A stretch of 60,000 nt of DNA from Amphiscolops sp. MND2022. Taxonomy: Eukaryota. Below, in pieces: positions 1 through 49,479 of this stretch. The stretch's first letter is position 1. The number at the start of each line of letters is the position of its first letter. Location of the stretch: NCBI GenBank assembly GCA_964187785.1, contig OZ076409.1:39248001-39308000 (forward strand), in the 5' to 3' direction. Below the pieces are notes generated by a model. That model did no database searches, had not been told where the DNA came from, and saw only the letters and a list, made by a program, of their open reading frames with translations. The position numbers and the translations under genes were made by a program.

Positions 1-1344
1 AGTAATAGGGCTTTCTATCAGTAATAGAGTCTCAAAGAAAGCTGATATCTCGAGATATGGCACCGACTTGGGCCGGTCCTGGCTTGTTTGTAGTTGATTT
101 CGAAATTGACCCGTATCAACTAAAGCAACTAAAGCTGACTTTTACTATTGTTTTGTATTCGAAACTAGCACGATTAATACCGGAAAAAAATATCATTTTG
201 GACAATTGGTGTAGCTATTGATTACGTTATCGTAAATATTTAATACTGATTTCATGAGGCTGACTCGATGCCATACGGAAGAGCATTTGATTTCATGTAT
301 TGAATTGCCCGGAAGCCCTATTTATTCGGATGCGAATAGCTATATAGACCCTTTAAAACAACTCTCATAACTCTATGAAGTGTGTAACACTGCAAACTTT
401 TTTACATTGTACAGCGGTATTAAAAGTGAAAACTTGGTCAACATTACATGAATTATTATTTTTTATTTTTTCCATGAGGAGCAAAATGCTCGGCAAAACA
501 TTACCTCTTTCCTCGAGCAGCAAACCATTGGAAAACAGGCTGACAATTATCACAACGTAGTCAAAATTACGAGACACATCCCGATAAAGTGGATTTCGGT
601 CACGCAGCGTAATCTGTTAATTCAGTAAAAAGGTCAATCAGCGTAAGTTAGTCAAGACGGTCTATGCCTGGACAGTGTAGCTAGGTCAACGCGCGTAATG
701 AAAAATAGTGTAAAATATTCAAGGCGCGGAGTTAGTGAAAAGTGGAAGTTAGTCCAAAAATACACTTTTCCGTAATTCAGTCAAACTTTGACTAACTTCC
801 ACTTAATGCAAAAATAGCGATTTGCAATTCACAAAAAAGTGGAATGTGGTCAAGTTTGACTAACTTACACCATGTCTATATGCATTCAATATTCAGTGTT
901 CATTTTAAATCCTATTCATACCACTACATCGTAAAACAGTCAAATTAAACAATGATTCATTAAATAAATAGTTATTATTACCAAGCAGTACAGTACATAG
1001 TACGTATAAACCGCATTGCGCGTGTATTTTATCCATACATTTTACGTGCAAATAATCATATAAATATACATAGGATATACCTTGGAGCTACTAACTAGTA
1101 TCACTACCTTGTAGTACCAATTTTATCAAAGCAGCCCTCATCAATAGTTGCATTAACACTATCTTCAATTTTGGTCCCTGTCGTGAGCAAAGCTTGTGTC
1201 AGCGGAATGATTGATCAACGAGATGATGAACTGGGTTAATCTGGTCAAGGAATTTTGTGAAAGTACTATTGTAATGACTTATCAATGCGTGTAATGTACA
1301 CCTTATCACAAGTGTAAATCTTCCAAAAAAAAATATGCGCTCTG

Positions 1345-2553
1345 TGACAGAACGGGCGGACGTCTCTGGGTTAGGCACGTCACGATTGTTCTCTTCCCTA
1401 CTATTTGATAATCTGTCAGTAAGGGCTTTCACAATATTAGTAAGTTCTCCAATTTGGCGATTCATTTCCAAGAAACGTTGTTCAAATCTATGATTTTCGT
1501 GGTCCCTCTCTATCTCTCTCATGTCATTTTCGAATTCATTTCCCAAGACATTTTCACCGAAATGGTCAGCAACACTCATGTTGTCTTCGTTATCGGAATA
1601 ACTACTAGTTCCAGATTGCTCGATTCTACTTTCTCTGTTAAATCTCGATCGAGTATTTACCATGATTGAAAAGTTATATTTTTAAGCAGTTTGAATTATG
1701 AAATGTAAGTTTAAGAATCAGAACATTGTATAATGCTTGTTAAGGTAACGACTGGATTCTACCGTGGTAAAGTTCTAATTGTTGGATTTTTGAATTGTAC
1801 TAGCACCTTCAAACTCGTAATTACTCGTTAATCGCACTTGATTATTTGAGTCTCTTCTCAACTGGTCATTTGGTTAACCTGCTGTTAGCACCTCATGGTA
1901 CATTTCGTACGACTGGTCACTTCAGTCGTTGTTAATTACCACTTCGGTACTTCCACTCTATTATCACAGCAGTATGCATCATTTGCCTTGTAACTTCACA
2001 GCGCGTACTAATGATTGAAGTGCTGAATATAATTACTGCATTTGATCGTCGGTAATATTGCTCTAATTAGCACTGAATACAAATGGACGACTATTGATCG
2101 AAGTTGTTGCTGGTAATTTCGCAAAGTTTTGACTGATTGAATATTTATGAACTAAGCGATGCAAAATGACTATTGGTGAACTAAACGATGCTTTAGTAAT
2201 TGGACTATTGATGATTTACATATAAAAAACTGCATGTATGTTTAAGTAAAGGTACAACCGGATATGCCAGTCGTTTGTGTAAAGGTTTCATATATTGCAC
2301 ATAAAGTTTGTTGAATTCGACTATCTATTTTAGTCGTTATTGCTAAACAGGTGAAAGGAAAATATGTTCATGTAAAATGTGTCGAAGCACACTGGTAGTT
2401 TGTGATATTGGTGAATTGGGGTGACCACTGCATAGTACAGTCGTCCATTGTATGCATCTACATAAGCTTAAACTGTTTGTGTTTTGAATGTTTCAGTCGG
2501 TTGGTGGAGTCTTCATTCTTCAGTCGTTATACTTCATACCAACCGGTATGACA
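1345..2553 (-). repeat. 3' LTR of element 1
   Basis: Near-identical to 14830-16038 (about a dozen substitutions seen by eye); contains a copy of the gag N-terminus (ORF 1199-1663). Confidence 0.97.
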
Positions 2554-2565
2554 CTCCGCCTCTTT
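2554..2565 (-). other. Polypurine tract of element 1
   Basis: Minus strand AAAGAGGCGGAG immediately before the TGTCA start of the 3' LTR. Confidence 0.75.
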
Positions 2566-7189: not shown

Positions 7190-8678
7190 TGCGTTTGAGA
7201 AGACTATTTGTTGAGCAAATTCGCTGAGACTACATTTTTGGACTTCTTTTTAATACTTATTTTTGTGTTTGTAGTGATTTCATATCGTATTACATGGCTT
7301 TTTGATTTTGTCTTGAGCGCTGTATCATTGTTCTTCTTTCGCTGCTGATTTGTAATTTTTTCATGTTGATTGCTGATTTGGCTGTCATTGTTAGTCCCGG
7401 AACGGGTACATTTGATTTTGCATTTTACTGGCTTGCATGTATTGTCGTTATTACTCTTGATTTGTGACAGTTGTTTTATAGATTTTAGTTACATGGCTTG
7501 ATACATCTTGCATGTGTCTCTCTTGTTTATCTCGTTGACACCGTAGCGTTTAAGTGTGTCTAGAAGAAGAAATACAATTTTGACCTCGATTTTTCTTTTG
7601 TCGTAGTTAGAGGTTTGCATGTTGGATGTTGTTTCATGTATTTTGCATGAGGTTATTTATCTAAGTCGACGTCATCATTGTTGATGTGTGTTGTTATTTT
7701 TCTTGAGCTTTTGACTTGTTACCTCATGGTAATTGCTATAGTGAACGGAAGGCGGACTAAATTCTTAAGGCGTGTTGGTATTGGGCAGCTAGTTTGTAAG
7801 TAGGACCGCGAACTCCTTAAATCTTTTACTGTGGCGAGTCGATGCGTACGCATTGTTGGTCTAATTTAAGGGGTCGGGCGTTCATTTTCGTCGTTTTGGT
7901 GAATACGTATCTTCACCTTCATGGTCATATTTTTTTTCTCAGTTTATTGTTCGATTTATTGTAAGGTGAATTGCCGTCGCAACCACCCATTCAAAACTAA
8001 CACTGAATCCAGTTGCTAAAGAGCAACCTTCATCTGTATGGTGACGACCAACCACACAAGCACGTTTTTGACGACGCACCCACACAGCCAGCACTATGAT
8101 TTCAAGGTTAATTGTGTGGGGCTTCATTGCGTGGTCCTAACGTTAGCGAGGCAGCAGATCGTTCCTGTTAGTTCGTTGATCGTTTTGGGAACGTTATTTG
8201 CGTTCACGTTTCGTTAATTTCGCTAGGATCGTCTCGTATTTGGAGTATTTTACTCCGACTGTGGCTATGGTGATTTTGGCATGAATTGAATAAATTATCT
8301 CGCGTTAATTTACATGGTACATGTATTTCCGCATCGCATTTTCCGTGACGACTGGTGTCTGTGGTCGTTGCGTTTCCGTTCGTTCATTATTAATGGCAGT
8401 TAGTGCTCAGCGTTTGCGCTGTTCAAGTAGTGTAGCCTGAAATGAATGGTCGTTTTAATTGCTGTTGAGTGGCTAGTGTTCTTGCGTGTCGCAATTGTAA
8501 ATCAATTGCCTGCACGATCTAGGCTCATGACTGCCATGACTGCTATTAGCAGTCGTTAGTGATGTCTTCTATTTTGATTAAGCTAACGAAAGTAATGGAA
8601 TTTCATGTTTGGTGTGCTAAAGAAAATTATAGTTTGTTGTGTTGTGTAGCACTTTTGCGTGGAGCGTTTTTATGACTC

Positions 8679-11600
8679 TCAGTTGGAGTGGTTGTTTTGC
8701 ACCAATTTTCGTAATACAGGTTTTGCTTGGAGTTCGTGAACGAGGAAGTCTCGATAAGTCTTCGGTGTAGGTTGCGCACGTAGGTTGTAACGGGTAGTGT
8801 TATTGCGCGACGTTACCGTTGCTTCGTCGTTGTTGTGTGGCAGCTCGTTCTGGTGGGTTGCAGTTTGATCGGGTTCGGCCCGATTTTCGTCCTCTAAGTG
8901 AGTACTGACAACAGGGTCGTCAGTCGGTGGCACAAATGTGTGAGGAGAGCTTTCAGGTATAGGTTGTGTCATTTGTCGGTCCGATGACCTTTGAGCTTGG
9001 TCGTAGTATATGATACCATGTTCAGTGTCGAGTTCTTCATGAGGCGGCAGTGCAGGCGTTCGCTCAAAATGGATCGTCTGAGGTACATGGTCGTTAAATA
9101 GATCCTGGTCGTCGAACGCTTCTGGGTCGGCATAGAAGAGATTTGGATCTTCTTCGATGTCGTGTATGGGTGCGTTCGGGATGAAAGGTCGTAAACGCAT
9201 CCTATGAACGCACTGTGTACGGGAAGTGCCGATTTTTCTCACTATGTAGTTGAAGTTAGTTAAGACTTTTACTACTTTGAAAGGGCCTTCCTATTTAAAA
9301 TGGTTGAATGCAATTTTGTCGGACTGGTCAGTGATTTTCGGGTTGAGAAGGAAAACAAAGTCATTAACCTTTAAAGGTGATGCCTGGGCTTTACGGTCGT
9401 AGTACCTTTTGTACTTGTGGTAAGCCTGGAGTATGTTGTCGTTTACTTGTTTGTACTTTTCGTTCACTTGGTCAACCAATTTCGTCAAATCAGTGTCATG
9501 TGTACGGCTTTGCAGGGGGTTGCTGAACTTAAGGTCTAAGGCGTTGAACGGGACTCTACCATGAAACACTTCGCTCGGAGTACACTTTAGTGATTGGTGG
9601 TAAGTCGTGTTATGAGCCATAACTGCCAAGTTAACGTACTTGTCCCATTGCGGAGAGTCAGCTGCAACATTGATTTTCAGTATCTGTTTTAGCTTTTGGT
9701 GGGAACGTTCAACCATTCCTATGGTCTGTGCATGTTTTACAGTTGTGTGTTCGATTTGAATTCCGGCAGTTTTCATTAGTTCGGTCATGATGCTTGATGT
9801 GAACGCCGTGCCTTTGTCAGTGATGATGGTCTTAGGCACGTAGGCGTGACGGGTAAAGATTTGCAACAGTGCATTGACTACTGATTTTGTGTCTGGTTTG
9901 CGGATCGGGATCGCGAACAGATAGCGCGAGAAGTAATCGCACGCCGTCAGGATGTGCGTATATCCATTTGAGCAGGTCAGTTCGCCTACTAGGTCGATTT
10001 CTAGTATGTCTTCAGGACCGTTGCAAGGGTCGTAGATTTTTTCAAGCGGTGGGATTAGGCGTTTTGTGTTGAAAGGTTTAGCTTTTAGACAGTCTGTGCA
10101 GTTACTAACAAATTTTGAAACGTGATCGCTAAGGTTAGGTATGTAACAACGCTTGCGGAGTTCTACCAACATTTTGGTTGCCCCAGAGTGTCCCTGCATG
10201 GGGTCGCCATGCATCGTCCTGATTATGGGCAATGTAGTTTCTGGAGGTACTACAATTTGTTTAAATAGAACTCTGCCAGTGTTATCAAAAAACTTCCTGT
10301 ACAAGACCTTGTTGACTACTTCAAGACGTTTTCTGTTTTTTACTAGTTTTTGGAAGAAGGTACTGGCAAAGTTTACGTGGTTAGGGAGGGGTTCGTCGTT
10401 AACTAAGACTCTTATCATTTTTTGAACGTCTTGGTTACTTAGTTGTGCTTGGATTATTTGTGAATCCCCTTGCGGGCATACCTGGTTTACCGTGTTGGTG
10501 TGCTGTCTTCGGGTAAACTTCGTCAGCATGATTGAGGGGGTTCCGTCTGTCAACACTGGTTCGAGGTGACGACTGATGATCTGGATCATTCTGGTACGGT
10601 CGTCGTCGGGTTGGTCCTGGGTGTTCGCGAGTGAATGCAGTAGTGATTGCATTTGGCTGAGGGCATCATGGGTGTTGGTTGTCTCAGGTCCGTCCTGCTC
10701 CGGGGTGTCAGCTGGAGTATTGTGTTGTGGTTGATCAGGGTCGTAGTCTTCTTCATCGTCGTCCTGCTTCGGGGTTTTTGCTGCTAAGTCAATCTCGATG
10801 TAATGGACGGGGATCTGGTCGTTCAGTTTCAGGTGGATCCTATCCTCAGGGTTAATGTCTAGCCTGGACAGGTAGTCAGCAGCTGGGTTTTCCACACCTG
10901 GCACGTGGGCTAGTACGAAGTCAAATTGCAGTGCTTGGTCGCAATGATTCCACAATTTCGGTGGGATTCGCTTTGATTGGAAGAAGCGGGTTAGCGCTTT
11001 ATTGTCTGTCATCACGATGGTGGGCTTCTTTACTCCCCATAAAATGTGGGCGAACTCATCGAAGGCGAAATGCATGGCTAGGAACTCCTTCGCATACATA
11101 GTCAGTGACATTTGGCCTTCCGTGAATCGTTGGGACCCGAAAGCAACAGGTGCGTACGTCTTCTTCTTGTCGTCGTTGCTTTCAGTGTAGTCCTCGATAA
11201 GCAGCACGTACCCTGCTGCATGTTCGCTGGCGTCACACATGATGACGAGTTGCTTGTCGGGTAGTGGTAGTCGAAGTGACAGTTTCGCAGCTCGTGCTAG
11301 ATTTTCGTTGATGTCGAAAATTGCGTCCTTGTGTACCTGCATCATTGCGAACTTGACATCTTTTTGTAGTAGCTTGTACAGTGGGACGAGTTTCTCGGCC
11401 AATTTCGGGATGTATTGCCTGTAGAATTGCACAAATCCAATGTAGCGCTGGAGTGATTTGACTGATGTTGGTAATTTGAAGTTTTTGAGGAAGTCGTCAA
11501 TCCGGTCTGCAAGGGGTGCGATGCCTTTGGTTGTTCTGCTTCGTCCCAAGAATTCGATTTTCGGGTGTCCAAAGGCGCACTTTGACATCGAGAGTTTCAG

Positions 11601-13622
11601 TCCTGCCTTCTGTATCTGCTGAAACACTGCTTCGATGTTGGCACCCAGTTCGTCCACGTTGTGTGCAGCGACTCCAATGTCGTCAACGTATTGTGCACAT
11701 TTGTCTGCTTTTACTAGTGCATCAAGGTACTCTCGGATTGTGCTGTTGAATGCTGACAGTGATCTGTTCAATCCTTGAGCAAGACGAAGGTATGCAAATG
11801 TCCTGCTGCCAAAATTAAATGCAAGAAGCTGGATTGACTGTTCGTCGGCCATCTGAAGACAGTGGTAAGCTTGCGAACAGTCGAGCTTACAAACGTACTT
11901 CTTGCCAGCCATGTGTTGAGCGGCGTCTGCTATCGTCGTGACCGGGTGATTGTGCTGGTTGTAGTCGTTCTTGAGGAGGTGGTTGATGCGTCTCAAGTCG
12001 ACTAGGATTCGCAATTTTCCATTGGGCTTCCGCTGGGCAAATATCGGGAACGAGTATTTGCTGTATGGAAGTGTGGTGATGATGCCGTATTCTTGCATCA
12101 GAGCCAATTCGACGAGGAGGTCGTCCTTCAGGTTAGTCGGGGTCGGTAGGCTCTGTGCGTACACCGGGTCATCATGCTTGGGTGTCAATTTGATTTTGAA
12201 ATCTGTGTTGATGCCTATGTCAAGGCGGTGACGTGCAAAAATCGTGTGGTATTTGACCAACAGTGCTTCAATCCTTTGTTGCTCTTGTTCGGTGAGGATT
12301 GAGTTGTCCCAGCTGAAATTCTTCAGGAACGCCCGTCGTTGGTCGTCGTCACGTGTGGGGTCGAGTTTCTCAGCTTCTCGGAGTTGGATGATTTCATCGT
12401 AAATTCGGCGTTCAATTTTATTCAGTTTATCAGGGTCGTCACATGTATCGGGTGTGGGGTACCATCGTTTGTCCTTGTTTGCATCTGGTTCCTGGAACAA
12501 CTGGTTGATCACGTTCTTGGCCTCATCTGGAAACTTCGAAATGAGGGTCAGTTGCTCGTTTGTCATTGGTTGGACGTTCTTCGCTTGGTTTGGGGTTAGA
12601 ATGCGGAAAACTGCGACTGTTGTGTGTTGGGGTATTGTTATTGTGTGGTCCAAGTAATTGGTGATTTGGACATGGCTCTGCTGGTCGTTTATTTCGGACA
12701 TCGATGGGGATACCAGCAGTTCCGTCTTCCGTTCGAATGCTGGGAACGCTTCCACCGTGCCTGTTACATGGCCGATGTCCTTTTCTGCTACCACTGGGAT
12801 GAAGACTTGTTGTTGCGGTGGTATGGTTGTCTTCTGTAATGCTCTGAGTTCCAACATTTGCAATTTGAACTTTCCATTTTGTGGTCTCAACTGGAGGGTG
12901 ATTTCTGGGAATTTGACAATGTTGTTTGCGAGGTCTAGTGTTACTGAATATTTTTTGAAAAATGACATTCCGATCAAAATGTTTCCCATTGTCGGCAAAA
13001 TCATAAATGTTTCCTCGAACACTTTTCCTCCGATAAAGAATCGAAGGAGGACTTGTTTCCGGACTGGGACTATGCTTCCATTGGCAATTTGGACTTTGAA
13101 GTCCGGGGCTGGGTATTCTTCAAGTTGAGCTGCTGGGTGGGCTTGCAATATCCGGCGTAGTTCATTTTCCGACATTGCACTTTGGATAGCACCTGTGTCC
13201 AGTAGCCCTTGGTTTTCGTATGCTCTGAATTGGAGAGGGACGTAGAGCATTTTGTTTCTCTTGTCTAGTTGTAATGTTGCACTGAGGGGTTTGATAGCCA
13301 TTGTTTTAGTGTTATTTGACGACTTCGTTTGTGATGGGTTGTTTTTGTCCCTTGTTTCCGTCTGAGTAGTCCGTGTAATGGGTGGTGAGTCCTTTGCAGT
13401 ACAGTCCTTTGTTGTACACGTGGGGTCATCTCCAACTAGTGTGAGTATGTGGTAGTTGTTGGGTGATACCTTGTGTACGTAGTATTTTTTGGAGTGTTTA
13501 GACCGATTGCCAGAATGCTGCCGACATTCCGACGTCTGAGACTTCGAGTCATAGTAGTGTTTAGTTTGTGGTCGTTTGCGCGCACTGGTAGTCTGGTTGT
13601 GTTGAGGATGACGTGGCTTTAC
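8679..13622 (-). CDS. pol: Pol polyprotein of element 1 (protease, RT, RNase H, integrase); one in-frame TAG at 9291-9293
   Basis: LLDTGA protease; YVDD RT; CDAS...KEFLA...TDN...ADYLSR RNase H; H-H-C-C zinc finger and DDE integrase; NHFK*EGPF continues in frame into ORF 8679-9242; frame open back to the gag end. Confidence 0.95.
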
Positions 13623-15148
13623 AAGTTTTTTGAATTCTGGTTGAATTCTTCGTTGTAATCCTCGTCGTAACAGTCATTATGTACTTCGGTTTGGTTGGTC
13701 TCACTTGTTGCTTGTGATACCTGGTATTGTGGTTGTTGTCGTGAGTTTTGGGATTGTCGGAAATCTCGTCGGAACTCACGATTCTCCGTTGTGGACTGTT
13801 TTTGATAAGGTACATTCTGGTATGCTGATGCACCTGGGACTCGGTTTCTGCAGTCTCGTGCAGAGTGTCCAACTTTGCCACAGATTTGGCACACTAGCTT
13901 CGAGTTGTATCGGGGTTTGTCAGTCTGAGGCTGCTGGTTGTTATTGTCCTGTTGGGTGCGTTGGTAAGTTTTTGTGTGGATTCCGTTTGCTTCGTCCCGG
14001 AGGCGTTTTCGGCAGTCAATCCACTTATGTCCAACAATGTTGCAGTATCTGCAGTTGCCTTCAAATTTTCGTTTGACCTCTTTGTTGGTGGCAGTTGTTT
14101 GTTGGTTGGTTGGCTGCTTCGCGGGGTAATTCTGGATGTTGTTCAGAGGTTGCATCCCTGCAGGGGTGGGTAGCAGTTGTGCATATTGGCAACGTCTTTG
14201 CACGAAAGTCTTAATTTCCTCGCTGGTCGCATCGTGCTTTCCTGCCATTGCCAGCTCATTCTGGATTTGTATGGGTAATTTGGCAAACAGGAATGTTTCA
14301 GCTATGTCATTGGCTTTGTCACCATACGCCTGTTTTGCTAATTTTTTGAATTTTGTTAGAAAATCGGCAAATGACTCCGTTGTTGGGTCGTACCTCATTT
14401 GATCGAATTTGTACTTCGATACTTCTTTGAGGTCTTCTTTGGCGTATTCCTTGCTGAATGCCTGGAGGATTTCGGTGAGTGTTGTTTCGGTCGTTATCTT
14501 CAGAGTTTGCCAGAAATCGATGGCGTCATCTCTGAGGAGGCTTTGGAAATAATTCAATTTCTGCTCTTCCGTCAGTTTGTGCATATGTGGCCGGAGATGG
14601 TTTTTGAGCAAGTGTTCGAACTCATTGTACTTTTCTCGGTTGCCACGGAATAGAGGGACTTGTGTTTGGAGTATTTTGGGCTGGATCACTCCATCGGTCA
14701 TTGTTGTTCTGAGGTGCTGTATTTCGGTCATGACTTCTCCCATTTGTGGATCAAGTAATGAATGTGGAGTCCTTCTTGGTGGTTGCGTGTTGGGTGTAGG
14801 TGGTGGGTTCGCCAGGACTCCTGTCACCATGTCAGAACGGGCGGACGTCTCTGGGTTAGGCACGTCACGATTGTTCCCTTCCCTACTATTTGATAATCTG
14901 TCAGTAAGGGCTTTCACAATACTAATAAGTTCTCCAATTTGGCGATTCATTTCCAAGAAACGTTGTTCAAATCTATGATTTTCGTGGTCCCTCTCTATCT
15001 CTCTCATGTCATTTTCGAACTCATTTCCCAAGACATTTTCACCGAAATGGTCAGCAACACTCATGTTGTCTTCGTTATAGGAATAACTACTAGTTCCAGA
15101 TTGCTCGATTCTACTTTCTCTGTTAAATCTCGATCGAGTATTTACCAT
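13619..15148 (-). CDS. gag: Gag of element 1 (509 aa), starting inside the 5' LTR
   Basis: Capsid-like region followed by two CCHC knuckles, CRYCNIVGHKWIDC and CQICGKVGHSARDC. Confidence 0.93.
   Translation of the reverse strand: MVNTRSRFNRESRIEQSGTSSYSYNEDNMSVADHFGENVLGNEFENDMREIERDHENHRFEQRFLEMNRQIGELISIVKALTDRLSNSREGNNRDVPNPETSARSDMVTGVLANPPPTPNTQPPRRTPHSLLDPQMGEVMTEIQHLRTTMTDGVIQPKILQTQVPLFRGNREKYNEFEHLLKNHLRPHMHKLTEEQKLNYFQSLLRDDAIDFWQTLKITTETTLTEILQAFSKEYAKEDLKEVSKYKFDQMRYDPTTESFADFLTKFKKLAKQAYGDKANDIAETFLFAKLPIQIQNELAMAGKHDATSEEIKTFVQRRCQYAQLLPTPAGMQPLNNIQNYPAKQPTNQQTTATNKEVKRKFEGNCRYCNIVGHKWIDCRKRLRDEANGIHTKTYQRTQQDNNNQQPQTDKPRYNSKLVCQICGKVGHSARDCRNRVPGASAYQNVPYQKQSTTENREFRRDFRQSQNSRQQPQYQVSQATSETNQTEVHNDCYDEDYNEEFNQNSKNL
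13625..13631 (-). other. Putative -1 ribosomal frameshift heptamer A AAA AAC
   Basis: Lies two codons before the gag stop; the -1 frame is open through to the pol ATG at 13301. Confidence 0.7.
14818..14829 (-). other. Primer-binding site of element 1 (TGGTGACAGGAG)
   Basis: Directly after the 5' LTR, begins TGG (complement of tRNA CCA); identical 12-mer in element 2. Confidence 0.85.
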
Positions 15149-16038
15149 GATTGAAAAGTTATATTTTTAAGCAGTTTGAATTATGAAATGTAAGTTTAAG
15201 AATCAGAATATTGTATAATGCTTGTTAAGGTAACGACTGGATTCTACCGTGGTAAAGTTCTAATTGTTGGATTTTTGAATTGTACTAGCACCTTCAAACT
15301 CGTAATTACTCGTTAATCGCACTTGATTATTTGAGTCTCTTCTCAACTGGTCATTTGGTTAACCTGCTGTTAGCACCTCATGGTACATTTCGTACGACTG
15401 GTCACTTCAGTCGTTGTTAATTACCACTTCGGTACTTCCACTCTATTATCACAGCAGTATGCATCATTTGCCTTGTAACTTCACAGCGCGTACTAATGAT
15501 TGAAGTGCTGAATATAATTACTGCATTTGATCGTCGGTAATATTGCTCTAATTAGCACTGAATACAAATGGACGACTATTGATCGAAGTCGTTGCTGGTA
15601 ATTTCGCAAAGTTTTGGCTGATTGAATATTTATGAACTAAGCGATGCAAAATGACTATTGGTGAACTAAACGATGCTTTAGTAATTGGACTTTTGATGAT
15701 TTAAATATAAAAAACTGCATGTATGTTTAAGTAAAGGTACAACCGGATATGCCAGTCGTTTGTGTAAAGGTTTCATATATTGCACATAAAGTTTGTTGAA
15801 TTCGACTATCTATTTTAGTCGTTATTGCTAAACAGGTGAAAGGAAAATATGTTCATGTAAAATGTGTCGAAGCACACTGGTAGTTTGTGATATTGGTGAA
15901 TTGGGGTGACGACTGCATAGTACAGTCGTCCATTGTATGCATCTACATAAGCTTAAACTGTTTGTGTTTTGAATGTTTCAGTCGGTTGGTGGAGTCTTCA
16001 TTCTTCAGTCGTTATACTTCATACCAACCGGTATGACA
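14830..16038 (-). repeat. 5' LTR of element 1
   Basis: Direct repeat of 1345-2553, TGTCA...TGACA termini. Confidence 0.97.
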
Positions 16039-16232
16039 CTCTGATTGGACAAAAATCGAACAAGCAGGATCCTGCTAGTTCGCTACCGGGATGTGTCTCG
16101 TAATGAACTGACACAGCCACTTGATTAACCTATTTTCTAACCAAAAATTTGTACTTTAAAACTGCAAACCTTATCACAATACACCTTATTTGAGAAGTTT
16201 TACCATGATTTTCTGTATTCGATTCAAAAGCC

Positions 16233-16386
16233 TTTTGAAACCTTAAAGACTCTCCTTTTTTGATTCCGCAAAACTTACTTTTCAGCAGCTTCCTCAGGAT
16301 TCTGAAAATTTTGAAAATTTCCTGAGGAAGCTGCTGAAAAATAAGTTTTGCGGAATCAAAAAATTAGGGTCTTTAAGGTTTCAAAA
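16233..16386. repeat. Near-perfect inverted repeat (arms about 67 bp, loop about 20 bp)
   Basis: TTTTGAAACCTTAAAGAC...CTTCCTCAGGA mirrored by TCCTGAGGAAG...GTCTTTAAGGTTTCAAAA. Confidence 0.85.
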
Positions 16387-19303: not shown

Positions 19304-19830
19304 CCCAGTGTAAAAACTCTTGCAACTCTTGATAAGAATCTTGGATATTCCTGAATTTCTTGGTAAGAATCTTGCCAAGATTCTTACCAAGAAATCCACG
19401 AATTTGCAAGATCTTGCAAGATCGTGCCAAGAAATTCAAGAGATGAACTAACAAAAGTGAATGAAAACAAACAAAAACCGACGCCAACTGCAGCTTGATC
19501 AGCGTACCTCTTATGCCGCAGCTTTTCGCGCTACCAACCAAGCTATCACGTTCTGAAATTCACTACTTTGTGTTGTCCTATATTCAATACTTCAAAGAAT
19601 GATAGTGTAGCTGGTAGTGCGAACAACAGCAAAATACTTGTAAACAAAATTGATGTTTGTTTTTTTATTCATTCTCTTGACACTCTTGATAAGACTCTTA
19701 CCAAGAATACTATCAAGAAATTCAAGAGGTTTGTGTGAAGCAAGAATAAACAAGATCTTATCAAGAGTTTCAAGAGTAAACGGGAATATGTAAGAATATG
19801 CAAGATCTTGACAAGAGTTTTTTCACTGGG
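19304..19830. mobile_element. MITE with CCCAGTG termini
   Basis: TIRs CCCAGTGTAAAAACTCTTG / CAAGAGTTTTTTCACTGGG; many internal CAAGA/TCTTG subterminal repeats; possible AA 2-bp TSD. Confidence 0.8.
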
Positions 19831-21759
19831 AACGAAGAATGGCACGCTGAAAATCCATGACCAAACTTTTGGTACTTGGTCAATAGGAAGGATGTCAGCT
19901 TGTAAAAGACTCCAACAATTACTCTAGAAATACATTTAAAATTCTAGACTTTTACAAGAGATAATTCAGTAGCATATTTTCTTGCGTGATTTTGTAACTG
20001 AACGTCAAAACTGTAATGTATTCTGAGATGATTGTTTCGATCGAAAAGTAGGCAAGAGAACAAAAAGAAAGCCAATTTCCGAATCTGGATGACTGACCTC
20101 TTTGGTTGAAGGTGACCTCTGTGGGATTGATGAGAGTTTTCTTAATTAAGAAAAAAAAAACATTTTTGGGCTGTGCCCACTTTTTAAGAAACTTTTTCTG
20201 TTCATTAGTTGTTTGATGTTTTCAGTTTATAAAACCTGTTTTCTGAGCACATGGGGTCACACCGTTGGGTGATTTCTGCACTGTGCGACTTTCTGCGAAA
20301 AATTTTAAGAAAAAATTACAATATCGGGTTTTGTGATAATTTTAGTTATTGAAAAGTCTTTTATTTACCTTAAAACGTCCCCCTTATAACAGTATACTGA
20401 AATCGATGAAATTCCTCCTCTTGTGTAAAATGCTCCTCTTGTGTAAATTATCAATCCAATGTTGCACTTTTTCGAAACTCACTGCCATTTCTCGAAAAGA
20501 AAGTTCTGAAAATGTTTTAAAAAACATTCATACGAGTGTGCCAATATGCAAGAATTGCCAATGACTTACACCCTGTTCGTTTTGTTTATACAAGTGAAAT
20601 TTTTTGTCAGAACTTCTCAAGGAAAAAAACACAACTCTATTTACAAAACGCAATTTATTTGAACGAATCATAAATCTATACAAAGGAACAGAAAACAGAT
20701 AACTGTATTTTCCTCCAAAAAAATTTAGAGTTTAAAAAACAAACAGTTCTTTTTGTTTATGCAAATTCATTTGCTATTGGTAAAAACGATTTTTTTCCAA
20801 AATTCGCCAAATACAATTACCAAAAAGTAATTGTTACAGCGACTATATAAAGAATCCGAATCAGTTCTTTATATAGTCACCGTCCAGGCGTATCACTTTC
20901 AATAATCTTTCATCATTTGAGGAGGTCAGTTTTTTTAATTAAGTTTGGGTCAATTTTCTTAGCAGCATTGACAATAGTTCTCCACAGATCGCCCTTTGAA
21001 TGAAACTGCTTGTTTTCCGCATAAACATTTCTCTTGATGATACCCCAAAAGTTTTCAATGGGATTTAAATCCGGTCATGCTGGTAGCCAGTTCATTATTC
21101 GTGACACAAAATTACCAATACTCGCCAGATATGATATTGAAATTTTTGCAGCATGCGAAGGTGCATTGGGTAGGCCGTGGTACCATAGTTCAAAATTTTG
21201 CCGTAAGAAAAGTTGGTAGGTTTTGGAATCCATTTTAACCCTTTCACGGACCCTAAATGGTCCTACTACTTTGTTATACACAATACCGGCCCAAAACATT
21301 ACTCCACTGCCACCTTGCTGGCGACGTCGCCTACGTGGACTTTCAGTTGCGGTATGCAGCCACCCTCTACAGAAGCCATCTTGTCCAACTAATGTGGCCC
21401 GATCAGGGATACCAATTAATAAAACCAATTACCAATTACCAACCCAATTGATTGTACGATTTTGACCCAATTAGCAATTACCAATTACTGAGAATAAAAA
21501 ACCAAATTACCCGATCCCAATTAGTTGTCAACTTTATCCAAAAACCAATTAGTTTTAAAGGTGCGGAGTTTCAAACCCAGTTATCCGATTTTGATTGGCA
21601 TTATAACAGAATTCATAGAAATCGAATTTTACCGATATTCATACATCTTTTTGTCACCCTAGCTTCTGCCAACGCGCTTCATCATTTTTCTTTCATTTTT
21701 CTATCATGTTTTATTTTTTATTAGAAAAGCAAATTGCAAAATATATTTTAAGTTCAGCG

Positions 21760-26491: not shown

Positions 26492-26571
26492 CAGGTTGGT
26501 AAATTGTTTCTGTTGGGACTTCAAAAACCTTTGTTGGTTAGGAGGCCTGATCGAGACAGTTATCCAGCCTC

Positions 26572-31542: not shown

Positions 31543-31742
31543 NNNNNNNNNNNNNNNNNNNNNNNNNNNNNNNNNNNNNNNNNNNNNNNNNNNNNNNNNN
31601 NNNNNNNNNNNNNNNNNNNNNNNNNNNNNNNNNNNNNNNNNNNNNNNNNNNNNNNNNNNNNNNNNNNNNNNNNNNNNNNNNNNNNNNNNNNNNNNNNNNN
31701 NNNNNNNNNNNNNNNNNNNNNNNNNNNNNNNNNNNNNNNNNN
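31543..31742. other. Assembly gap (200 N)
   Basis: Run of N. Confidence 1.
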
Positions 31743-32671: not shown

Positions 32672-32951
32672 GCTTCTAACTTATTAAGTCAGCGAAAAAA
32701 CTCGAATGTAACAGGTAATTGACGATACTCCACATGTCTGTTGTTCTGCGTAGTATTAATTTGCTTATCAGTGATATCAGTTCAGAATTGCTGAAATGGC
32801 AGGATACATTTTTTTCTCTGTTTTTCAGAGCTCTCATGGGATAAAAGACCATGCAAGTACAAAATATCGACAGATGGTGGATGTTCTATGACAACAAAAA
32901 CAATTTTCGAATAGTAAACATAACTTTTTACATATATAACTTGTTCCCAAT

Positions 32952-34656
32952 TGTCGTGAGCATTGCGAAATGCGTGGTCACATTGCTCATTAATCAAAGT
33001 CGTTCTAGTCCTTGTATTTTGCTGAACTTCGGAATGATTTTCCGGTCTCTCAACTGGGACCTCCCATCCCCTTCTAGTCTCACGGCCCGATCCGGCCATT
33101 AAGGCGTTTTGAATCTGAGGCAATACTTGACTATTTATAGCTTCATTAATGGCCCTTTGGATCTGTGAGCTAACATTATTGAACATGTCATCCATCTCTC
33201 TTGAGATCCTAGAGTTTAGTTCACTTGACAACCTGTTTATCTCAGCTTGAGAATCTAGGCTTGCTGAGTTATGGCCATAACCGGCACTTGTCCCAATTCC
33301 AAGATTTTCATTTTCTGAATGAAGATTTGTTTCCTCATCTTCCAAATTATTACTTACAATACTATTTTGTCTTCTAATGGAGGTCCCGTTAAGGCTGTTA
33401 TCCCTCCCTGATCCGTTGAAATGATTCTCGCCTAGCATAATATCTAGATTTTCAATGTCTGAGAGAATTTCTAATCCTCTAGATCTTCTTGCCTTCTTTT
33501 GTTTTCTAGTGGTAGGCATCAAGATCGAACCGAGTTGAAATATTGAATTCGTAAACTCAGAAAATTAACAGTGTAACCGTTTTGATGTTTACTAACATGA
33601 ATCAAAATGAAATTGTGTCTTCCCCAAGCGGGGTAATAGTATATATACCGCACGGGGAATGACAAGCACATTCTTTACATGATTAGCAAATCACTTGATT
33701 CCATACCTCACAGGGAAATCCCCGACTAATACATTTTTTAGGGGACAACTTAGGAACGGAATTTACAGACCGTTTATCTAAATACCAACATCAAACAACA
33801 TGTCGGCTAGCATCGTGACAATTATGGTGTAAACAAACTTCACTGCTTACATATTTTACAACTATGCAAGGTGCAGGCACGTGCCGACACACGTTCATTT
33901 CATAGCATCTTCATAAATGGAATGCATTACGGAATTCTAATAATGCAGCTGTATTCTCAAAGCGCTATTTTCAATGTACGCCCGAACAGGGACTAAGTCC
34001 ATAACATGTACAGCACGAATAAGGGGGCATGGAAAAGAGGTTAAATTATCCCCTTTTGTTAGGCAAGCAACAAGATTATTTAAACTACAAATGCGTATTA
34101 AATAGCTCCGGATAAATATTGGCTCATTTAAACAACAAAGGAAATATTATATCAGAATAGGCCGAAACCGGCCACTTGACTAAAGGGCCATTATTAGAAT
34201 AGTACCGTTCAGGCAATAGGCCTTATCCAGCCATTATAAACAAAGCATTTATAATTAGCAACAGGGGAGTGCTGTGATTGGTCAGCGGCCGTACCGAAAG
34301 TCACATCGCCGAGAAGGGACGTTTTCTCACTTGAACACGTTTCCTTCTCGCGATTAACTTGCTTTTGCACTTTACCGCTTTTCACTACAAATTAACACAT
34401 CGTTATACTGCACAGTATCTACATTCTAGTACAACATCCCAATTTGGATTTTCCAAATTGTAATTTAACAGACTAATATAATGCACCAATATATAAAATA
34501 CATCCGATTAACTAGAAAGTTGACAAAAATAATGATCCAATAACTATAAGTTTTAGTCAAAAGAGTTTTAAAATGTTGGAAGTGTACCTGGAGCGATATC
34601 TTGGCCCACTGCTGTAGTCGTTATAGGAGTTCCGTCACAGGCGGCAGCCTGCGACA
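32952..34656 (-). repeat. 3' LTR of element 2
   Basis: Direct repeat of 47202-48906; only two differences noticed. Confidence 0.97.
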
Positions 34657-36360: not shown

Positions 36361-36376
36361 TTTCTAATGCGGCGTA

Positions 36377-43800: not shown

Positions 43801-46080
43801 CATTTGAATGTTGCTCTCAGGTTCGTCATGAGGTGGTCGACATCATTGGCTGCGATGCCGATATCGTCCACGTACTGGGCACATTGATCCGCTTTAATGA
43901 CCTTGTCGAGGTATTCCCTCATGAAACTCGAGAATGCGGATAGTGACCGACTAAGGCCTTGTGCCAAACGTCTGTACGCAAATGTACGACTGGCAAAATT
44001 GAAAGCCAACATTTCGATTGAACGTTGGTCGGCCATTGGTAGGCAGTGATATGCCTGAGAACAATCCAATTTGCAAAAGAGTTTCTTGCCTGCCATGTGT
44101 TGGGCAGCATCAACCAGGGTGCTAACAGGATGGTTATTGTTAATGTAATCATCAGAGATTAGGTTGTTGATTTTTCTCAAGTCAACCAAAAGTCGTAGCT
44201 TCCCGTTTGGCTTCTTTTGGGCAAATATTGGGCTTGCATACTTTGAGAACGGTAGTGTAGTTATGATGCCATATTTGTGTAACATGGCCAATTCGACTAG
44301 AATATCCTCCTTCAGGTTAATAGGCGCTGGAAGACTTTGACTATAGGCTGGGGAATCGTCCTTGGGCGTCAATTTGACTTTGAATTCCTCATTCATGCCT
44401 ATATCAAACCGGTGTCGAGCAAATATATCGTGGAATTCTACTAATAGTTCCTCTATTTTCTCCTGCTCTTCAGTATTGAGGGTAGAATCTCTCCAATCAA
44501 AATTTTCTAGGAATTTGGCGCGCGATTCTTCGTCTTTCGTGGGGTCGAGTGTCTCCAGTTCCTGTAAGGCCTGTAATTCTCGGAGGATTCGTTTCTGGAT
44601 GGGTGTATGTTCCTCAGGATTTCCAGGATTCTCTGGGGTCGGGAACCAATAGTTTTCAGAATTTTGCGGGTTTTTGTTGGTCTTGATGAGACTGCTGACA
44701 TAGTGGGCTGCTTGCTCTTGGTCATTTTGTAAAAGGTGCCAGGTTGATGCCGGGTCTACCGGTTTGACGTATTTCATTTGTTCTGGGGTCATGACTGAGA
44801 AACTAGCAATATGGAGTCCCTTTTTAAGTTTATAAGGGTGATCTGTGAAGTTATTCACTGGTATCATTATATTGCCGTCATGCAAGGTGACCAAGGCTGG
44901 ACAGAATGTGATATCACCTTCTTCATGGAGAAGGTCGCTTGGTTGTAAGATCCCCGTGACAGCATTCTCAGGGTACAATAGGGAATTGGTCCTAATTAGG
45001 ACTCTGTCATTTGGCGGAATGGTGATCTCATTAGGGTTGAGAATCGGCTCTAATACATTTGAGTATTTGTGATCAGCTGTTTTGAGCTGCATCGAAAAGA
45101 ACGGGAAGTTCAGTATCCCTTGTCTCATGTCCAAGACTGTATGATTTCTCTGAAGGAACATTAGTCCAATGATCGGACCCGTCAGATGTTCCATGACTAT
45201 AAATATTTCATGAAATTCAATGTCGCCAACTTCAAATTTAAGTTCTATAGTACTTTTGGGCGTTTCCAGCTGCCCATTAGCGACCATGATCTGGAAATTC
45301 GGTGGCGGACCTTCTCGGATAACAGATTGTGGAGATAAGAGACGAATTTTCCGGTGGTCCATTTCTGGAATTGCACTGGACTGAGCTCCAGTGTCAATGA
45401 GTCCATCTATGGTCAACTCCCCAAAGTCCATGGGGAAGTACAACATGCGCTTCTTGCATTTGAGGTTGATGTTGGTCGACAAGGGTATACAGTCTGGTTC
45501 ACCGTCTCTGGTGATTAGGACGTTCTGGAACTGCTTCTCGTCTAATAGTGATTGTGGTGTAGATTCAGAGTTGTCCTCATGGGCCTCGGTCCCCAATGGG
45601 TTCGGGAACACTGGGTGATTCGTGCCATCATTCATCTGCCAGTTTTCAACTAGTGCTCTGGTCTTTTTATTGTGGGTATTTGGAGGGTTCTCGTGGACTG
45701 TTCTGTTGTAGTGCTCGATGTCGTCTAAGACATATTGGAATTGTAGTAGTTCCTGGTTGTAGATCTCTGAGTCCCAATAGGGATCTCTGCCATAATCTGG
45801 ATCTATGTAGGTAGGATTGTAATTGTCAACCAGGGGAATGGGCCTGAATCGGGTAGTGAAGGTAGTAGTGTAATCAGGATCCCAAACAGGAATTGGTTTT
45901 TGGAACAAATGGGTATTGTTATATGTAATGGTTACTGCTTTGTCCATCTGTTGCTGCCAGACAACAGAGGGGTAGCCCATCAATTGTTGGTTATATTGGT
46001 GGAAAGTTTTTATTGGAGGATCCGACCTGATGTATTGGATACGGATATGAGTTCGTTGTATTGGAGTCGTGGCGAAGTTA
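40881..46080 (-). CDS. pol: Pol polyprotein of element 2 (uninterrupted)
   Basis: LIDTGA, YVDD, TDAS...ADYLSR, HHCC and DDE integrase, VGPF motif. Confidence 0.96.
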
Positions 46081-47769
46081 GTTTTTTGACTCATCATTGG
46101 AAGATGAGGCCTGCGAATTGGAAGATGTTGTTCTATTTTGTGGTTTCTGCGCCTTTGAGTTGGGTTTACTATCATTGGCGTCATCTGGTCTGGTGCGTTT
46201 AGGTTTAAGATGCACACCGGCGCCTTGCCAACATCTTTCCTCGGGGTGGTTCTTTTTACCACAAGTACCACACTCCGGATACGTCTTTTTCTGAGTCTGT
46301 TTGCCTTGTTGGGCATCTTTTTCTTTTTTCTTCTTCAACTTTTCGCAGTCTTTGACCATATGGCCCTTCTCCTTGCAATAGTTGCAAGTGATATCTGACA
46401 TTTGCCTAGTAGTTAGAGGAGTCTTGGATTTTGTCGAGGAGGTCATTGTGGCCATTGGTAGGTCGTCTGATTCCTCTAGTGCATTGAGTTCTAATTCTCT
46501 CTCTAAATGAGCAACTATTTCGTCATAAGAGCCATTTTCTAGTCTGGCCATGTTGACATACCGTTTCAGTTTTGGTGGCAGCTTTGCGTAGAGCAAGCTG
46601 TCAATCATTTTCTGCGCGTGATCTCCAAATGCTTTTTCTGCCCCTTGATTTAATTCTTCAAGGAAATCTGGTAGTTTCATCGTATTGGGATCAAAGACCA
46701 GGCGATGCCATTTATGTTTGGCAGTCGCTTGTGATTCGGGCTTGACGTATTTTCGTCTGAATATTACCAATACATCTTCTAAAGTCTGTCTATTGCTCGA
46801 AATGATGTTCCGGAAAGTTTGGAGAGCGTTCTTCCTCAGCAGTGAGTGGAAGTGATTTATTTTCATCTGTTCCGTCATTTCCGGTTGCATCTTGATCATC
46901 GTGTGGAACAGGTCCTCAAACAGCTCGAATTTTTCGCTCTTGCCATCAAAAGTCATTGTGTTCGAGTTGACTGGGCGTATAGTGAGTTGTTGGGCTGTCG
47001 GCCTATTCTGCATCGTTGTCAAGACATCTGCTAGTCGAGTAATAGGGTCAGTTTGAGCAGCCGGAGCATTTCTCTCTTGCGCTGGGGTCGTCGTGTCAAG
47101 GTTGATGTCCTCATAGGACTTGTCGAGATGGTTTCTGGATGAGACTCGTCCCGTGAGGAACTCAGGAACTTGAGGTGGAGATTCGTTGTCTCCTGTCACC
47201 ATGTCGTGAGCATTGCGAAATGCGTGGTCACATTGCTCATTAATCAAAGTCGTTCTAGTCCTTGTATTTTGCTGAACTTCGGAATGATTTTCCGGTCTCT
47301 CAACTGGGACCTCCCATCCCCTTCTAGTCTCACGGCCCGATCCGGCCATTAAGGCGTTTTGAATCTGAGGCAATACTTGACTATTTATAGCTTCATTAAT
47401 GGCCCTTTGGATCTATGAGCTAACATTATTGAACATGTCATCCATCTCTCTTGAGATCCTAGAGTTTAGTTCACTTGACAACCTGTTTATCTCAGCTTGA
47501 GAATCTAGGCTTGCTGAGTTATGGCCATAACCGGCACTTGTCCCAATTCCAAGATTTTCATTTTCTGAATGAAGATTTGTTTCCTCATCTTCCAAATTAT
47601 TACTTACAATACTATTTTGTCTTCTAATGGAGGTCCCGTTAAGGCTGTTATCCCTCCCTGATCCGTTGAAATGATTCTCGCCTAGCATAATATCTAGATT
47701 TTCAATGTCTGAGAGAATTTCTAATCCTCTAGATCTTCTTGCCTTCTTTTGTTTTCTAGTGGTAGGCAT
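46078..47769 (-). CDS. gag: Gag of element 2, starting in the 5' LTR; nonsense codon at 47413-47415
   Basis: CNYCKEKGHMVKDC and CGTCGKKNHPEERC knuckles; the 3' LTR copy has CAG where the 5' LTR has TAG. Confidence 0.92.
47190..47201 (-). other. Primer-binding site of element 2 (TGGTGACAGGAG)
   Basis: Adjacent to the 5' LTR; same 12-mer as element 1. Confidence 0.85.
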
Positions 47770-48906
47770 CAAGATCGAACCGAGTTGAAATATTGAATTC
47801 GTAAACTCAGAAAATTAACAGTGTAACCGTTTTGATGTTTACTAACATGAATCAAAATGAAATTGTGTCTTCCCCAAGCGGGGTAATAGTATATATACCG
47901 CACGGGGAATGACAAGCACATTCTTTACATGATTAGCAAATCACTTGATTCCATACCTCACAGGGAAATCCCCGACTAATACATTTTTTAGGGGACAACT
48001 TAGGAACGGAATTTACAGACCGTTTATCTAAATACCAACATCAAACAACATGTCGGCTAGCATCGTGACAATTATGGTGTAAACAAACTTCACTGCTTAC
48101 ATATTTTACAACTATGCAAGGTGCAGGCACGTGCCGACACACGTTCATTTCATAGCATCTTCATAAATGGAATGCATTACGGAATTCTAATAATGCAGCT
48201 GTATTCTCAAAGCGCTATTTTCAATGTACGCCCGAACAGGGACTAAGTCCATAACATGTACAGCACGAATAAGGGGGCATGGAAAAGAGGTTAAATTATC
48301 CCCTTTTGTTAGGCAAGCAACAAGATTATTTAAACTACAAATGCGTATTAAATAGCTCCGGATAAATATTGGCTCATTTAAACAACAAAGGAAATATTAT
48401 ATCAGAATAGGCCGAAACCGGCCACTTGACTAAAGGGCCATTATTAGAATAGTACCGTTCAGGCAATAGGCCTTATCCGGCCATTATAAACAAAGCATTT
48501 ATAATTAGCAACAGGGGAGTGCTGTGATTGGTCAGCGGCCGTACCGAAAGTCACATCGCCGAGAAGGGACGTTTTCTCACTTGAACACGTTTCCTTCTCG
48601 CGATTAACTTGCTTTTGCACTTTACCGCTTTTCACTACAAATTAACACATCGTTATACTGCACAGTATCTACATTCTAGTACAACATCCCAATTTGGATT
48701 TTCCAAATTGTAATTTAACAGACTAATATAATGCACCAATATATAAAATACATCCGATTAACTAGAAAGTTGACAAAAATAATGATCCAATAACTATAAG
48801 TTTTAGTCAAAAGAGTTTTAAAATGTTGGAAGTGTACCTGGAGCGATATCTTGGCCCACTGCTGTAGTCGTTATAGGAGTTCCGTCACAGGCGGCAGCCT
48901 GCGACA
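47202..48906 (-). repeat. 5' LTR of element 2
   Basis: Direct repeat of 32952-34656. Confidence 0.97.
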
Positions 48907-49479
48907 CCAATAGTTAGTAAGAAGCTATGATTGTAATTCATTCGAATTTGGTGACAATTTTCACGGTGAATTTCATATTAGTTTTGAAAAACACGGCATT
49001 TCAAACCTGTGGACAAAAGGAAATTTGTTTGAATTCAAGTAACAGTAATCACAATTTCCAGTTATAATTTTCCAGATAATCAACATCAGCAGTATAAAGA
49101 GGAAAAATTTCAGTAGAGATAATTTGGATTAAAAAGATTCCAGAAGCGGATCTTTTCAATGGGAGAGCGAGCAATTGCCAGAATTTAGACCTTTCGAAAT
49201 TCATCGTTCATCGCAGTTCCGTGTAGCCCATAAATGGCCATCGATCCGTATTTGAGATCGAAATTCTCAGCGATGACTATGAGTCGATGAGGCACCGAGA
49301 GAGCATCGAAGGCCCATCGATGGTTTCTAAAAATTTGATAACAAAATTAGAACAAAATTAACTGAAACAATAGGATATCCACTGATCGGCCTAAAACCTT
49401 ACTTGTTTCTCTGGTGATTCGTTCAAACGACCATGAAACTATGATTTTTCGTCTCTATTTGCTGCGCGAATACGACACA

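What the first reader, a model, noticed from the sequence alone, without database searches (positions are those of the whole stretch)
14818..15148. Gag starts deep inside the LTR and reads through the PBS
About 106 codons (element 1) and about 190 codons (element 2) of gag lie within the 5' LTR. The junction CA|TGGTGACAGGAG encodes D-M-V-T-G in both elements, so the LTR end and PBS are under coding constraint and also create an in-frame second ATG (possible long and short Gag isoforms). Ty1 gag also starts in the LTR, but by far fewer codons. The LTR-encoded parts are acidic and coiled-coil-like.
Basis: partly seen in the sequence, partly recalled or inferred. Interest (0 to 1): 0.7.

Follow-up and report, generated by a model that had tools for sequence, protein, structure and literature searches.

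The report
Gag domain encoded inside the LTR
In a large family of retrovirus-like jumping genes, the first 100-190 amino acids of the particle protein Gag, including a conserved helix, are encoded inside the terminal repeat itself, an extreme form of a layout known from yeast Ty1 that leaves every stray repeat carrying the start of a protein with no stop of its own.

Summary
Two young Ty3/gypsy elements start gag 319 nt (E1, 106 codons) and 568 nt (E2, 189 codons) inside the 5' LTR and read through CA|PBS. Gag relatives down to about 40% identity keep the layout. In a distant subfamily, 118 of 120 short ORFs match Gag up to the junction Asp and then turn into unrelated sequence, always via an A-starting codon, so the LTR ends there too. 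The LTR-coded part holds a long amphipathic helix whose hydrophobic heptad survives at 10-35% identity; its linkers look near-neutral. D-M-V-T-G is best read as forced by the LTR end and PBS. The junction ATG is the 5th or 6th in-frame Met, so two isoforms are unsupported. No RNA data were available, so the transcription start and translation are inferred. Ty1 is the precedent (at most about 31 codons); this scan noted tiny coding LTRs in microsporidia before. New variant of a known kind; interest 0.55.

The parts
14830..16038 (-). E1 5' LTR, 1209 bp, TG...CA ends
14830..15148 (-). LTR-coded part of E1 gag: 106 codons plus the A of the junction ATG
14885..15022 (-). E1 Gag residues 43-88: predicted long helix (pLDDT about 90 over residues 61-80) with a conserved hydrophobic heptad at 60-81
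14818..14829 (-). E1 primer-binding site (12 nt shared with E2), abutting the LTR and read as part of M-V-T-G
13619..15148 (-). E1 gag, 509 aa: LTR-coded N-terminus, capsid (Retrotrans_gag/DUF1759), two zinc-knuckle motifs
8679..13673 (-). E1 pol (PR-RT-RH-IN), in the -1 frame at an A-AAA-AAC site; broken by one stop at 9291-9293 near the integrase C-terminus
1345..2553 (-). E1 3' LTR
1199..1663 (-). 3'-LTR-derived ORF of E1: 106 Gag codons plus 48 codons running into flanking DNA
16039..16043 (.). E1 target-site duplication (other copy 1340-1344)
47202..48906 (-). E2 5' LTR, 1705 bp
47202..47769 (-). LTR-coded part of E2 gag, 189 codons, broken in this copy by a stop at 47413-47415
47344..47505 (-). 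E2-type Gag residues 89-142: predicted long amphipathic helix (model of relative P0122, pLDDT 58-72)
47190..47201 (-). E2 primer-binding site
46078..47769 (-). E2 gag frame, 563 codons
40881..46334 (-). E2 pol (PR-RT-RH-IN), lying in the +1 frame relative to gag
32952..34656 (-). E2 3' LTR
32782..33519 (-). 3'-LTR-derived ORF of E2: 189 Gag codons plus 56 codons running into flanking DNA
48907..48911 (.). E2 target-site duplication (other copy 32947-32951)

Best explanation
A Ty3/gypsy lineage in which R-U5 doubles as the first 100-195 codons of gag. SHOWN: the open frame from the LTR ATG through the LTR end and PBS; the same junction across subfamilies; selection on a long amphipathic helix inside the LTR-coded part. 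INFERRED: transcription starts in the LTR a short way upstream of this ATG; the genomic RNA is translated from it into one Gag (basic or Ser/Thr-rich tip, disordered linker, helix, linker crossing att and PBS, capsid, two zinc knuckles); the helix is the usual metaviral N-terminal region and probably helps Gag associate with itself or with a partner. Minus-strand strong-stop DNA must then be at least 320-570 nt plus the leader, and it copies these codons into both LTRs in every cycle. D-M-V-T-G is the reading forced by the terminal GACA and the tRNA-templated PBS, tolerated because it lies in a flexible linker. A by-product is that every 3' or solo LTR carries the ATG and 100-190 codons with no stop, running into whatever DNA follows.
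For: E1-type Gags (120 listed of 164, plus E1): 98 of 121 carry the junction motif with coding sequence ahead of it, 75 of them 100 aa or more; 4 begin at the junction Met; 19 lack the junction. E2-type (120 listed of 2295): Asp before the junction in 120, D|MVTG in 113, start MPTTRK in 107, 189 or 195 upstream residues in 105. Short ORFs of a subfamily whose LTR-coded part is 11-17% identical to E1's (120 listed of 538): 118 diverge right after the Asp (97% identity in the 20 residues before, 7% after); the next residue is of the A-starting codon class in 118 of 118, against 28 of 118 one position later, chance about 1e-43. Heptad positions 60, 64, 67, 71, 74, 77, 78, 81 are hydrophobic in 11, 10, 13, 13, 13, 13, 13, 13 of 13 N-termini at 10-35% identity, most positions between them in 0-2 of 13. 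Helix substitutions are conservative: mean BLOSUM62 +0.41 (95% CI 0.00 to 0.84) against a neutral -0.29 to -0.43 in the E1 subfamily. Of 203 relatives with 95 aa or more upstream, 144 begin M-x-x-T-R, a motif shared by E1 and E2, though the count is dominated by close E2 relatives. No ATG lies in the 205 nt ahead of the E1 start (P about 0.025).
Against: No RNA, ribosome or peptide data; all database proteins are gene-caller predictions, and the searches return open frames by design. No DNA of relatives was found, so dN/dS was not computed. Over the whole LTR-coded part the substitution spectrum overlaps the neutral range (E2 -0.38 against -0.33 to -0.52; E1 -0.24, CI -0.45 to -0.03, against -0.34 to -0.55), the linkers look neutral, the E2 helix interval (-0.14 to 0.62) touches the neutral value at high transition bias, and the blocks were chosen after seeing the identity profile. 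E1-type and E2-type N-termini show no profile similarity (probability 0.5%). No AATAAA or ATTAAA in either LTR, and E1 has no TATA consensus; E2's ATG has a weak context and an out-of-frame ATG 79 nt upstream. E2's own copy has a stop.
Confidence: 0.85

Rival explanations
1. Two Gag forms: a long one from the LTR ATG and a short, functional one from the junction ATG, made by an internal transcription start, splicing or leaky scanning.
For: The junction ATG has G at -3 and +4 in both elements, and E2's first ATG has a weak context. The Met is nearly invariant. 4 of 121 and 11 of 145 database proteins are called from it. Ty1 makes a short Gag from an internal RNA (PMC13709905, passages).
Against: The Met follows automatically from CA|TGG, and only two of three frames are open there. 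7 and 15 ATGs precede it, against leaky scanning. An RNA starting just ahead of it is not indicated by any data. Calls from that Met are expected in copies whose LTR part is damaged.
Confidence: 0.12
2. Gag really starts at or after the junction; the upstream frame is open by chance or is shaped by DNA/RNA signals in U5 rather than by protein function.
For: Overall identity of the LTR-coded part is low (24-28% among 12 E1-type representatives); linkers evolve near-neutrally; no Pfam family and no Atlas hit; one of two copies here has a stop; E2's R-U5 folds slightly better than shuffles (z -2.0 on 20 shuffles).
Against: Open-frame chance 0.0015 and 5e-6; the frame is open from a start-anchored Met in subfamilies down to 10% identity; a 3-4 residue hydrophobic periodicity survives while the letters change; E1's R-U5 folds no better than shuffles (z +1.2).
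Confidence: 0.03

Closest known systems
Ty1 of Saccharomyces cerevisiae (Ty1/copia, Pseudoviridae)
   Same: PBS lies inside the GAG frame (PMC4974528, passages), so GAG starts in the LTR and reads through its end.
   Different: The Ty1 PBS is at nt 94-104 of the RNA, which caps the LTR-coded part at about 31 codons (about 13, recalled). Here it is about 100-195 codons with a selected helix. Other superfamily: IN follows RT-RH here.
Ty3/gypsy (Metaviridae) Gag N-terminal regions; Arc, RTL/SIRH and PNMA as domesticated examples
   Same: N-terminal regions of active metaviruses are variable in length and predicted as single long helices plus disorder (PMC10516033, passages), which is the anatomy seen here. 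The capsid's best fold matches are dArc1/Arc/PNMA2, at Foldseek E 0.002-0.05, above the 0.001 mark.
   Different: The passages read do not place such regions inside the LTR; in Ty3 the 5' PBS segment is adjacent to the 5' UTR. No sequence relative of this N-terminus was found outside the lineage.
Ty1 p22/p18 copy-number control
   Same: A Gag fragment made by the element itself could poison particle assembly (PMC13709905, passages); a model for the LTR-only fragments here.
   Different: p22 is the C-terminal half from an internal RNA; the fragments here would be N-terminal, from 3' or solo LTRs, with random tails. Nothing shows that they are made.
Coding LTR ends in retroviruses and plants (MMTV sag, HIV nef, foamy bel, CRM integrase tails); recalled, from no call
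   Same: Protein-coding sequence overlaps an LTR.
   Different: Those overlap U3 of the 3' LTR; here the start of gag occupies the R-U5 end of the 5' LTR and crosses the PBS.

Membership tests
Ty3/gypsy (Metaviridae) | Direct LTRs with TG...CA ends and a short target-site duplication | tested here: met
   1209 and 1705 bp LTRs, 5-bp TSDs
Ty3/gypsy (Metaviridae) | pol order PR-RT-RH-IN | tested here: met
   Pfam order in both elements; best solved relative Ty3 Gag-Pol, E 2.7e-41
Ty3/gypsy (Metaviridae) | Gag with capsid and zinc knuckle | tested here: met
   DUF1759, Retrotrans_gag, zf-CCHC; Arc-like capsid fold, weak E-values
Ty3/gypsy (Metaviridae) | PBS next to the 5' LTR, complementary to a host tRNA 3' end | tested here: inconclusive
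   TGG-starting 12-mer shared by both elements; the residue after M-V-T-G has a G-starting codon in 189 of 195 relatives. No tRNA gene in the window, no genome held. A likeness to tRNA-Leu ends is recalled only.
Ty3/gypsy (Metaviridae) | Polypurine tract before the 3' LTR | tested here: inconclusive
   Purine-rich 12-mer in E1; none in E2, where an ORF runs into the LTR
Named Ty3/gypsy clade (Mag, Micropia/Mdg3, Tor and others) | RT phylogeny with named references | not testable with these tools
Ty1/copia (Pseudoviridae) | IN before RT | tested here: not met
Ty1-type layout (works-like claim) | gag start inside the 5' LTR with the PBS inside the frame | tested here: met
   Ty1 layout
Ty1-type layout (works-like claim) | Transcription start upstream of the LTR ATG, translation from it | not testable with these tools
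   No RNA run was listed
Env-bearing metaviruses (errantivirus-like) | Sense env ORF between pol and the 3' LTR | tested here: inconclusive
   About 6 kb of extra sequence with mostly antisense ORFs; no Pfam family at E 0.01

The most novel reading that the evidence does not exclude
The LTR of this lineage is a portable gene start: promoter, ATG and a helical Gag domain with no stop codon. Its many 3' and solo LTRs (538 clusters of such short ORFs for E1-type N-termini alone) are expressed as helix-plus-random-tail peptides that bind Gag and limit the element in proportion to copy number, a counterpart of Ty1 p22 supplied by the LTR, and they offer the host a ready-made N-terminus for new genes at every insertion.
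Probability: 0.12. Interest if true: 0.82.

Novelty: new variant of a known kind. Interest (0 to 1): 0.55.

Why it matters
It breaks the usual rule that the LTR is non-coding and gag begins after the PBS, and by an entire selected domain rather than a few codons, across a large and abundant lineage. It implies a long strong-stop DNA and an R-U5 that must serve integration, polyadenylation and protein coding at once. Annotation that looks for ORFs only between LTRs would cut 20-35% off these Gags, and gene callers turn 3' and solo LTRs into many false 'orphan' proteins, as seen in the database here. If the LTR-only fragments are expressed, the lineage is a natural test of self-restriction and of gene birth from LTRs.

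Tried and rejected
RNA evidence: no RNA holder was listed; this says nothing about expression. Whole genome: none held. DNA of relatives with P0122 as query: no match in viral contigs, 1 weak zinc-knuckle-region hit among 90 stretches in metagenome contigs (not used), 0 of 17 in genome contigs; so no dN/dS. The source names and taxa of the clusters could not be looked up, so the host is not identified; a recalled likeness to acoel-flatworm elements prompted one paper search (listing only) that gave nothing relevant. Two-copy fold of E1 residues 40-95: no answer, score 0.02 against a mark of 0.32, no evidence either way. Foldseek of both Gag models: nothing at E 0.001 or better. Pfam on the 13 N-termini gave scattered weak coiled-coil-type families, none in more than 3 of 13. 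Atlas on residues 1-189: no usable hit. Long tails of the LTR-derived ORFs (mean 34 codons) looked like selection, but weighting by cluster members gives 20, about what random flank gives; rejected. More LTR-LTR differences in E1's coding part (6 of 319 against 6 of 890) is not significant (P 0.09); 5 of the 6 are non-synonymous, as expected after insertion. Late starts within the LTR part (19 of 120) are not more common than early ends in a like-sized C-terminal stretch (40 of 120), a rough count on a ragged alignment. RNA folding gave no consistent signal. Promoter and poly(A) motif scan: inconclusive. Precedent searches: searches found 0 papers; one each (listing and abstract start only, not read further); one (10.1101/2022.12.06.519325, passages read, no gag-in-LTR case); one search gave only unrelated primer matches.

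Full report
LAYOUT. The window is eukaryotic in character and no genome is held. It contains two full-length LTR elements on the minus strand. E1 spans 1345-16038 with 1209-bp LTRs (12 differences) and E2 spans 32952-48906 with 1705-bp LTRs (2 differences); both have TG...CA ends and 5-bp target-site duplications. Both encode Gag with capsid and zinc knuckles and pol in the order PR-RT-RH-IN; the closest solved relative of E1 pol is Ty3 Gag-Pol (E 2.7e-41). They are Ty3/gypsy elements whose Gags are 26% identical over the capsid region.

THE OBSERVATION. E1's gag ATG (15148) lies 319 nt inside the 5' LTR: 106 codons, then GAC-A|TG-GTG-ACA-GGA, with the LTR ending on the A of the Met codon. E2's ATG (47769) lies 568 nt inside: 189 codons and the same junction. 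The chance of such open frames is 0.0015 and 5e-6. E2's 5' LTR has a stop at codon 119, one of its two LTR differences; the 3' LTR and 120 of 120 listed relatives are open there, so it is a lesion of this copy. The junction ATG is the 5th (E1) or 6th (E2) in-frame Met, behind 7 or 15 ATGs in all. The acidic bias is clear only in E1.

THE LAYOUT IS LINEAGE-WIDE. Of 121 E1-type Gags (120 listed of 164 hits, plus E1; down to about 40% identity), 98 have the junction motif with coding sequence ahead of it, 75 of these with 100 aa or more; 4 begin at the junction Met and 19 lack it. Of 120 listed E2-type Gags (2295 hits), all have Asp before the junction, 113 read D|MVTG, 107 start MPTTRK and 105 have 189 or 195 upstream residues. 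Among 145 new representatives of 50% clusters, 33 show the motif with 5-193 upstream residues (one, P0392, is a false match), 11 begin at it and 101, mostly fragments, lack it. Protein motifs alone do not show where the LTR ends, so I searched for the ORFs that 3' and solo LTRs should produce. A profile of 13 N-termini gave 538 short proteins; the 120 listed all belong to one subfamily whose LTR-coded part is 11-17% identical to E1's. 118 of them match Gag up to the Asp (97% identity over the last 20 residues) and then become unrelated (7%); the script counted 119, but P0284 continues as Gag, so I moved it. The first residue after the Asp is T, N, S, I, K, R or M in 118 of 118, the set reachable from an A-starting codon, against 28 of 118 one position later; chance is about 1e-43. 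The repeat therefore ends in GAC-A in that subfamily too.

IS THE LTR-CODED PART A REAL PROTEIN REGION? It diverges fast: 24-28% among 12 E1-type representatives, against 66% for the capsid and 26% for the linker after the PBS. Within it, AlphaFold2 predicts one long helix in each type (E1 residues 43-88, pLDDT about 90 at its core; E2-type 89-142, pLDDT 58-72) amid low-confidence sequence. Across 13 N-termini at 10-35% identity, positions 60, 64, 67, 71, 74, 77, 78 and 81 are hydrophobic in 10-13 of 13, with most positions between them in 0-2; the E2-type helix has the same 3-4 spacing in 19-20 of 20 closer relatives. Substitutions in the helix are more conservative than an analytic neutral model: +0.41 (CI 0.00 to 0.84) against -0.29 to -0.43 for 7 E1-subfamily sequences, and +0.26 (-0.14 to 0.62) against -0.13 to -0.31 for 12 E2-type sequences. 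Against this: the linkers and the LTR-coded part as a whole overlap the neutral range, the blocks were picked after seeing the identity profile, and the searches return only open frames. The start is anchored: 144 of 203 long N-termini begin M-x-x-T-R and 29 have an L-R-S/N-G-K/R motif near the start (redundant E2 relatives weigh heavily). E1-type and E2-type N-termini are not detectably homologous, so common descent of the helix is not shown even though the junction is shared. This anatomy, one long helix plus disorder, is what PMC10516033 reports for metaviral Gag N-termini in general (passages). The protein is ordinary; its position in the LTR is not.

THE JUNCTION PEPTIDE. M-V-T-G is invariant among the 12 representatives while both neighbours are about 25% identical. 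One of the three frames over CA|TGGTGA is closed by TGA, so a read-through has only two options. The residue after M-V-T-G has a G-starting codon in 189 of 195 relatives and the next one varies, which fits a nucleotide constraint of about 12 nt. From established knowledge of reverse transcription, the LTR end is fixed by integrase and the PBS is recopied from the tRNA. The peptide and its Met are thus best read as consequences of those signals. A short isoform is not excluded but has nothing for it beyond a good Kozak context.

MECHANISM. Shown: frame, junction, lineage-wide layout, selected helix. Inferred: the transcription start lies upstream of the ATG (E1 has an AT-rich, ATG-free 205 nt ahead of it; E2 has TATATA at -128 and initiator-like sites near -91, consensus matches only), so R-U5 is at least 320-570 nt and coding, and minus-strand strong-stop DNA is at least that long (scheme of reverse transcription as in PMC6894440, passages). 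Neither LTR holds AATAAA or ATTAAA, so the R-U5 border is unknown. Each cycle copies the Gag N-terminus into both LTRs, leaving 3' and solo LTRs with a stop-less ORF; in this window these are 1199-1663 and 32782-33519. Their tails in the database look random (member-weighted mean 20 codons). Whether they are transcribed into the flank depends on the unknown poly(A) site.

COMPARISON AND NOVELTY. In Ty1 the PBS lies within GAG at nt 94-104 of the RNA (PMC4974528, passages), so at most about 31 codons are LTR-coded; in Ty3 the 5' PBS segment adjoins the 5' UTR (same passages). Ty1 also restricts itself with a Gag fragment (PMC13709905, passages), the model for the novel case. Two earlier notes of this scan describe gag starts in very short LTRs of microsporidian elements (unchecked). 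Six searches for a published Ty3/gypsy case found none, but they match exact phrases in an open-access library only; subscription papers, Repbase-type entries and supplements were not seen and may describe such elements. PMC8121366 (passages) says mammalian Arc needs its N-terminal domain for large oligomers, which is an analogy only. Verdict: a real, conserved and unusually deep coding LTR; a new variant of a known layout; expression untested; interest 0.55.

Noticed in passing
window 34568-35347 (-): E2 has a 259-aa sense ORF with no Pfam match whose last 29 codons lie in the start of the 3' LTR, and no purine tract precedes that LTR; both ends of the E2 LTR may be coding.
   Followed up: partly
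window 36377-40649 (+) and 3366-7189 (+): Both elements carry about 6 kb between pol and the 3' LTR with antisense ORFs (E2: 686, 201, 389 aa; E1 fragmented). Both hold a C2H2-like motif that aligns weakly (9 of 35 identical, E 0.001); no Pfam match at E 0.01 and no solved relative for the two largest. Possibly a lineage-wide antisense accessory gene.
   Followed up: partly
window 46078-46334 and 13619-13673: Both gags end at an A-AAA-AAC slippery site; E1 pol is in the -1 frame, E2 pol in the +1 frame with the -1 frame closing after about 23 codons. A lesion of the copy or another expression route.
   Followed up: no
proteins P0369, P0393, P0505: Distant Gag relatives carry two or three tandem H-M/V-V/M-T-G/E motifs, suggesting duplicated LTR-end/PBS junctions within the frame.
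   Followed up: no
proteins P0242-P0361: The two residues after the LTR end are skewed (T, N, S, I; then H, G, D, Y, E), which hints at a target-site preference. P0242 looks like two LTR-coded parts in tandem.
   Followed up: no
window 25832-29982 (+): Fragmented LINE-like element: PHD/CCHC ORF, endonuclease and RT.
   Followed up: no
window 21619-23793 (+), 16233-16386, 19327-19421, 53462-53540: Two ORFs without Pfam match that look by eye like DNA-transposase remnants (recalled likeness to hAT), and three short palindromic repeats, one 190 nt from the E1 5' end.
   Followed up: no
window 31543-31742: Run of 200 N (assembly gap).
   Followed up: no
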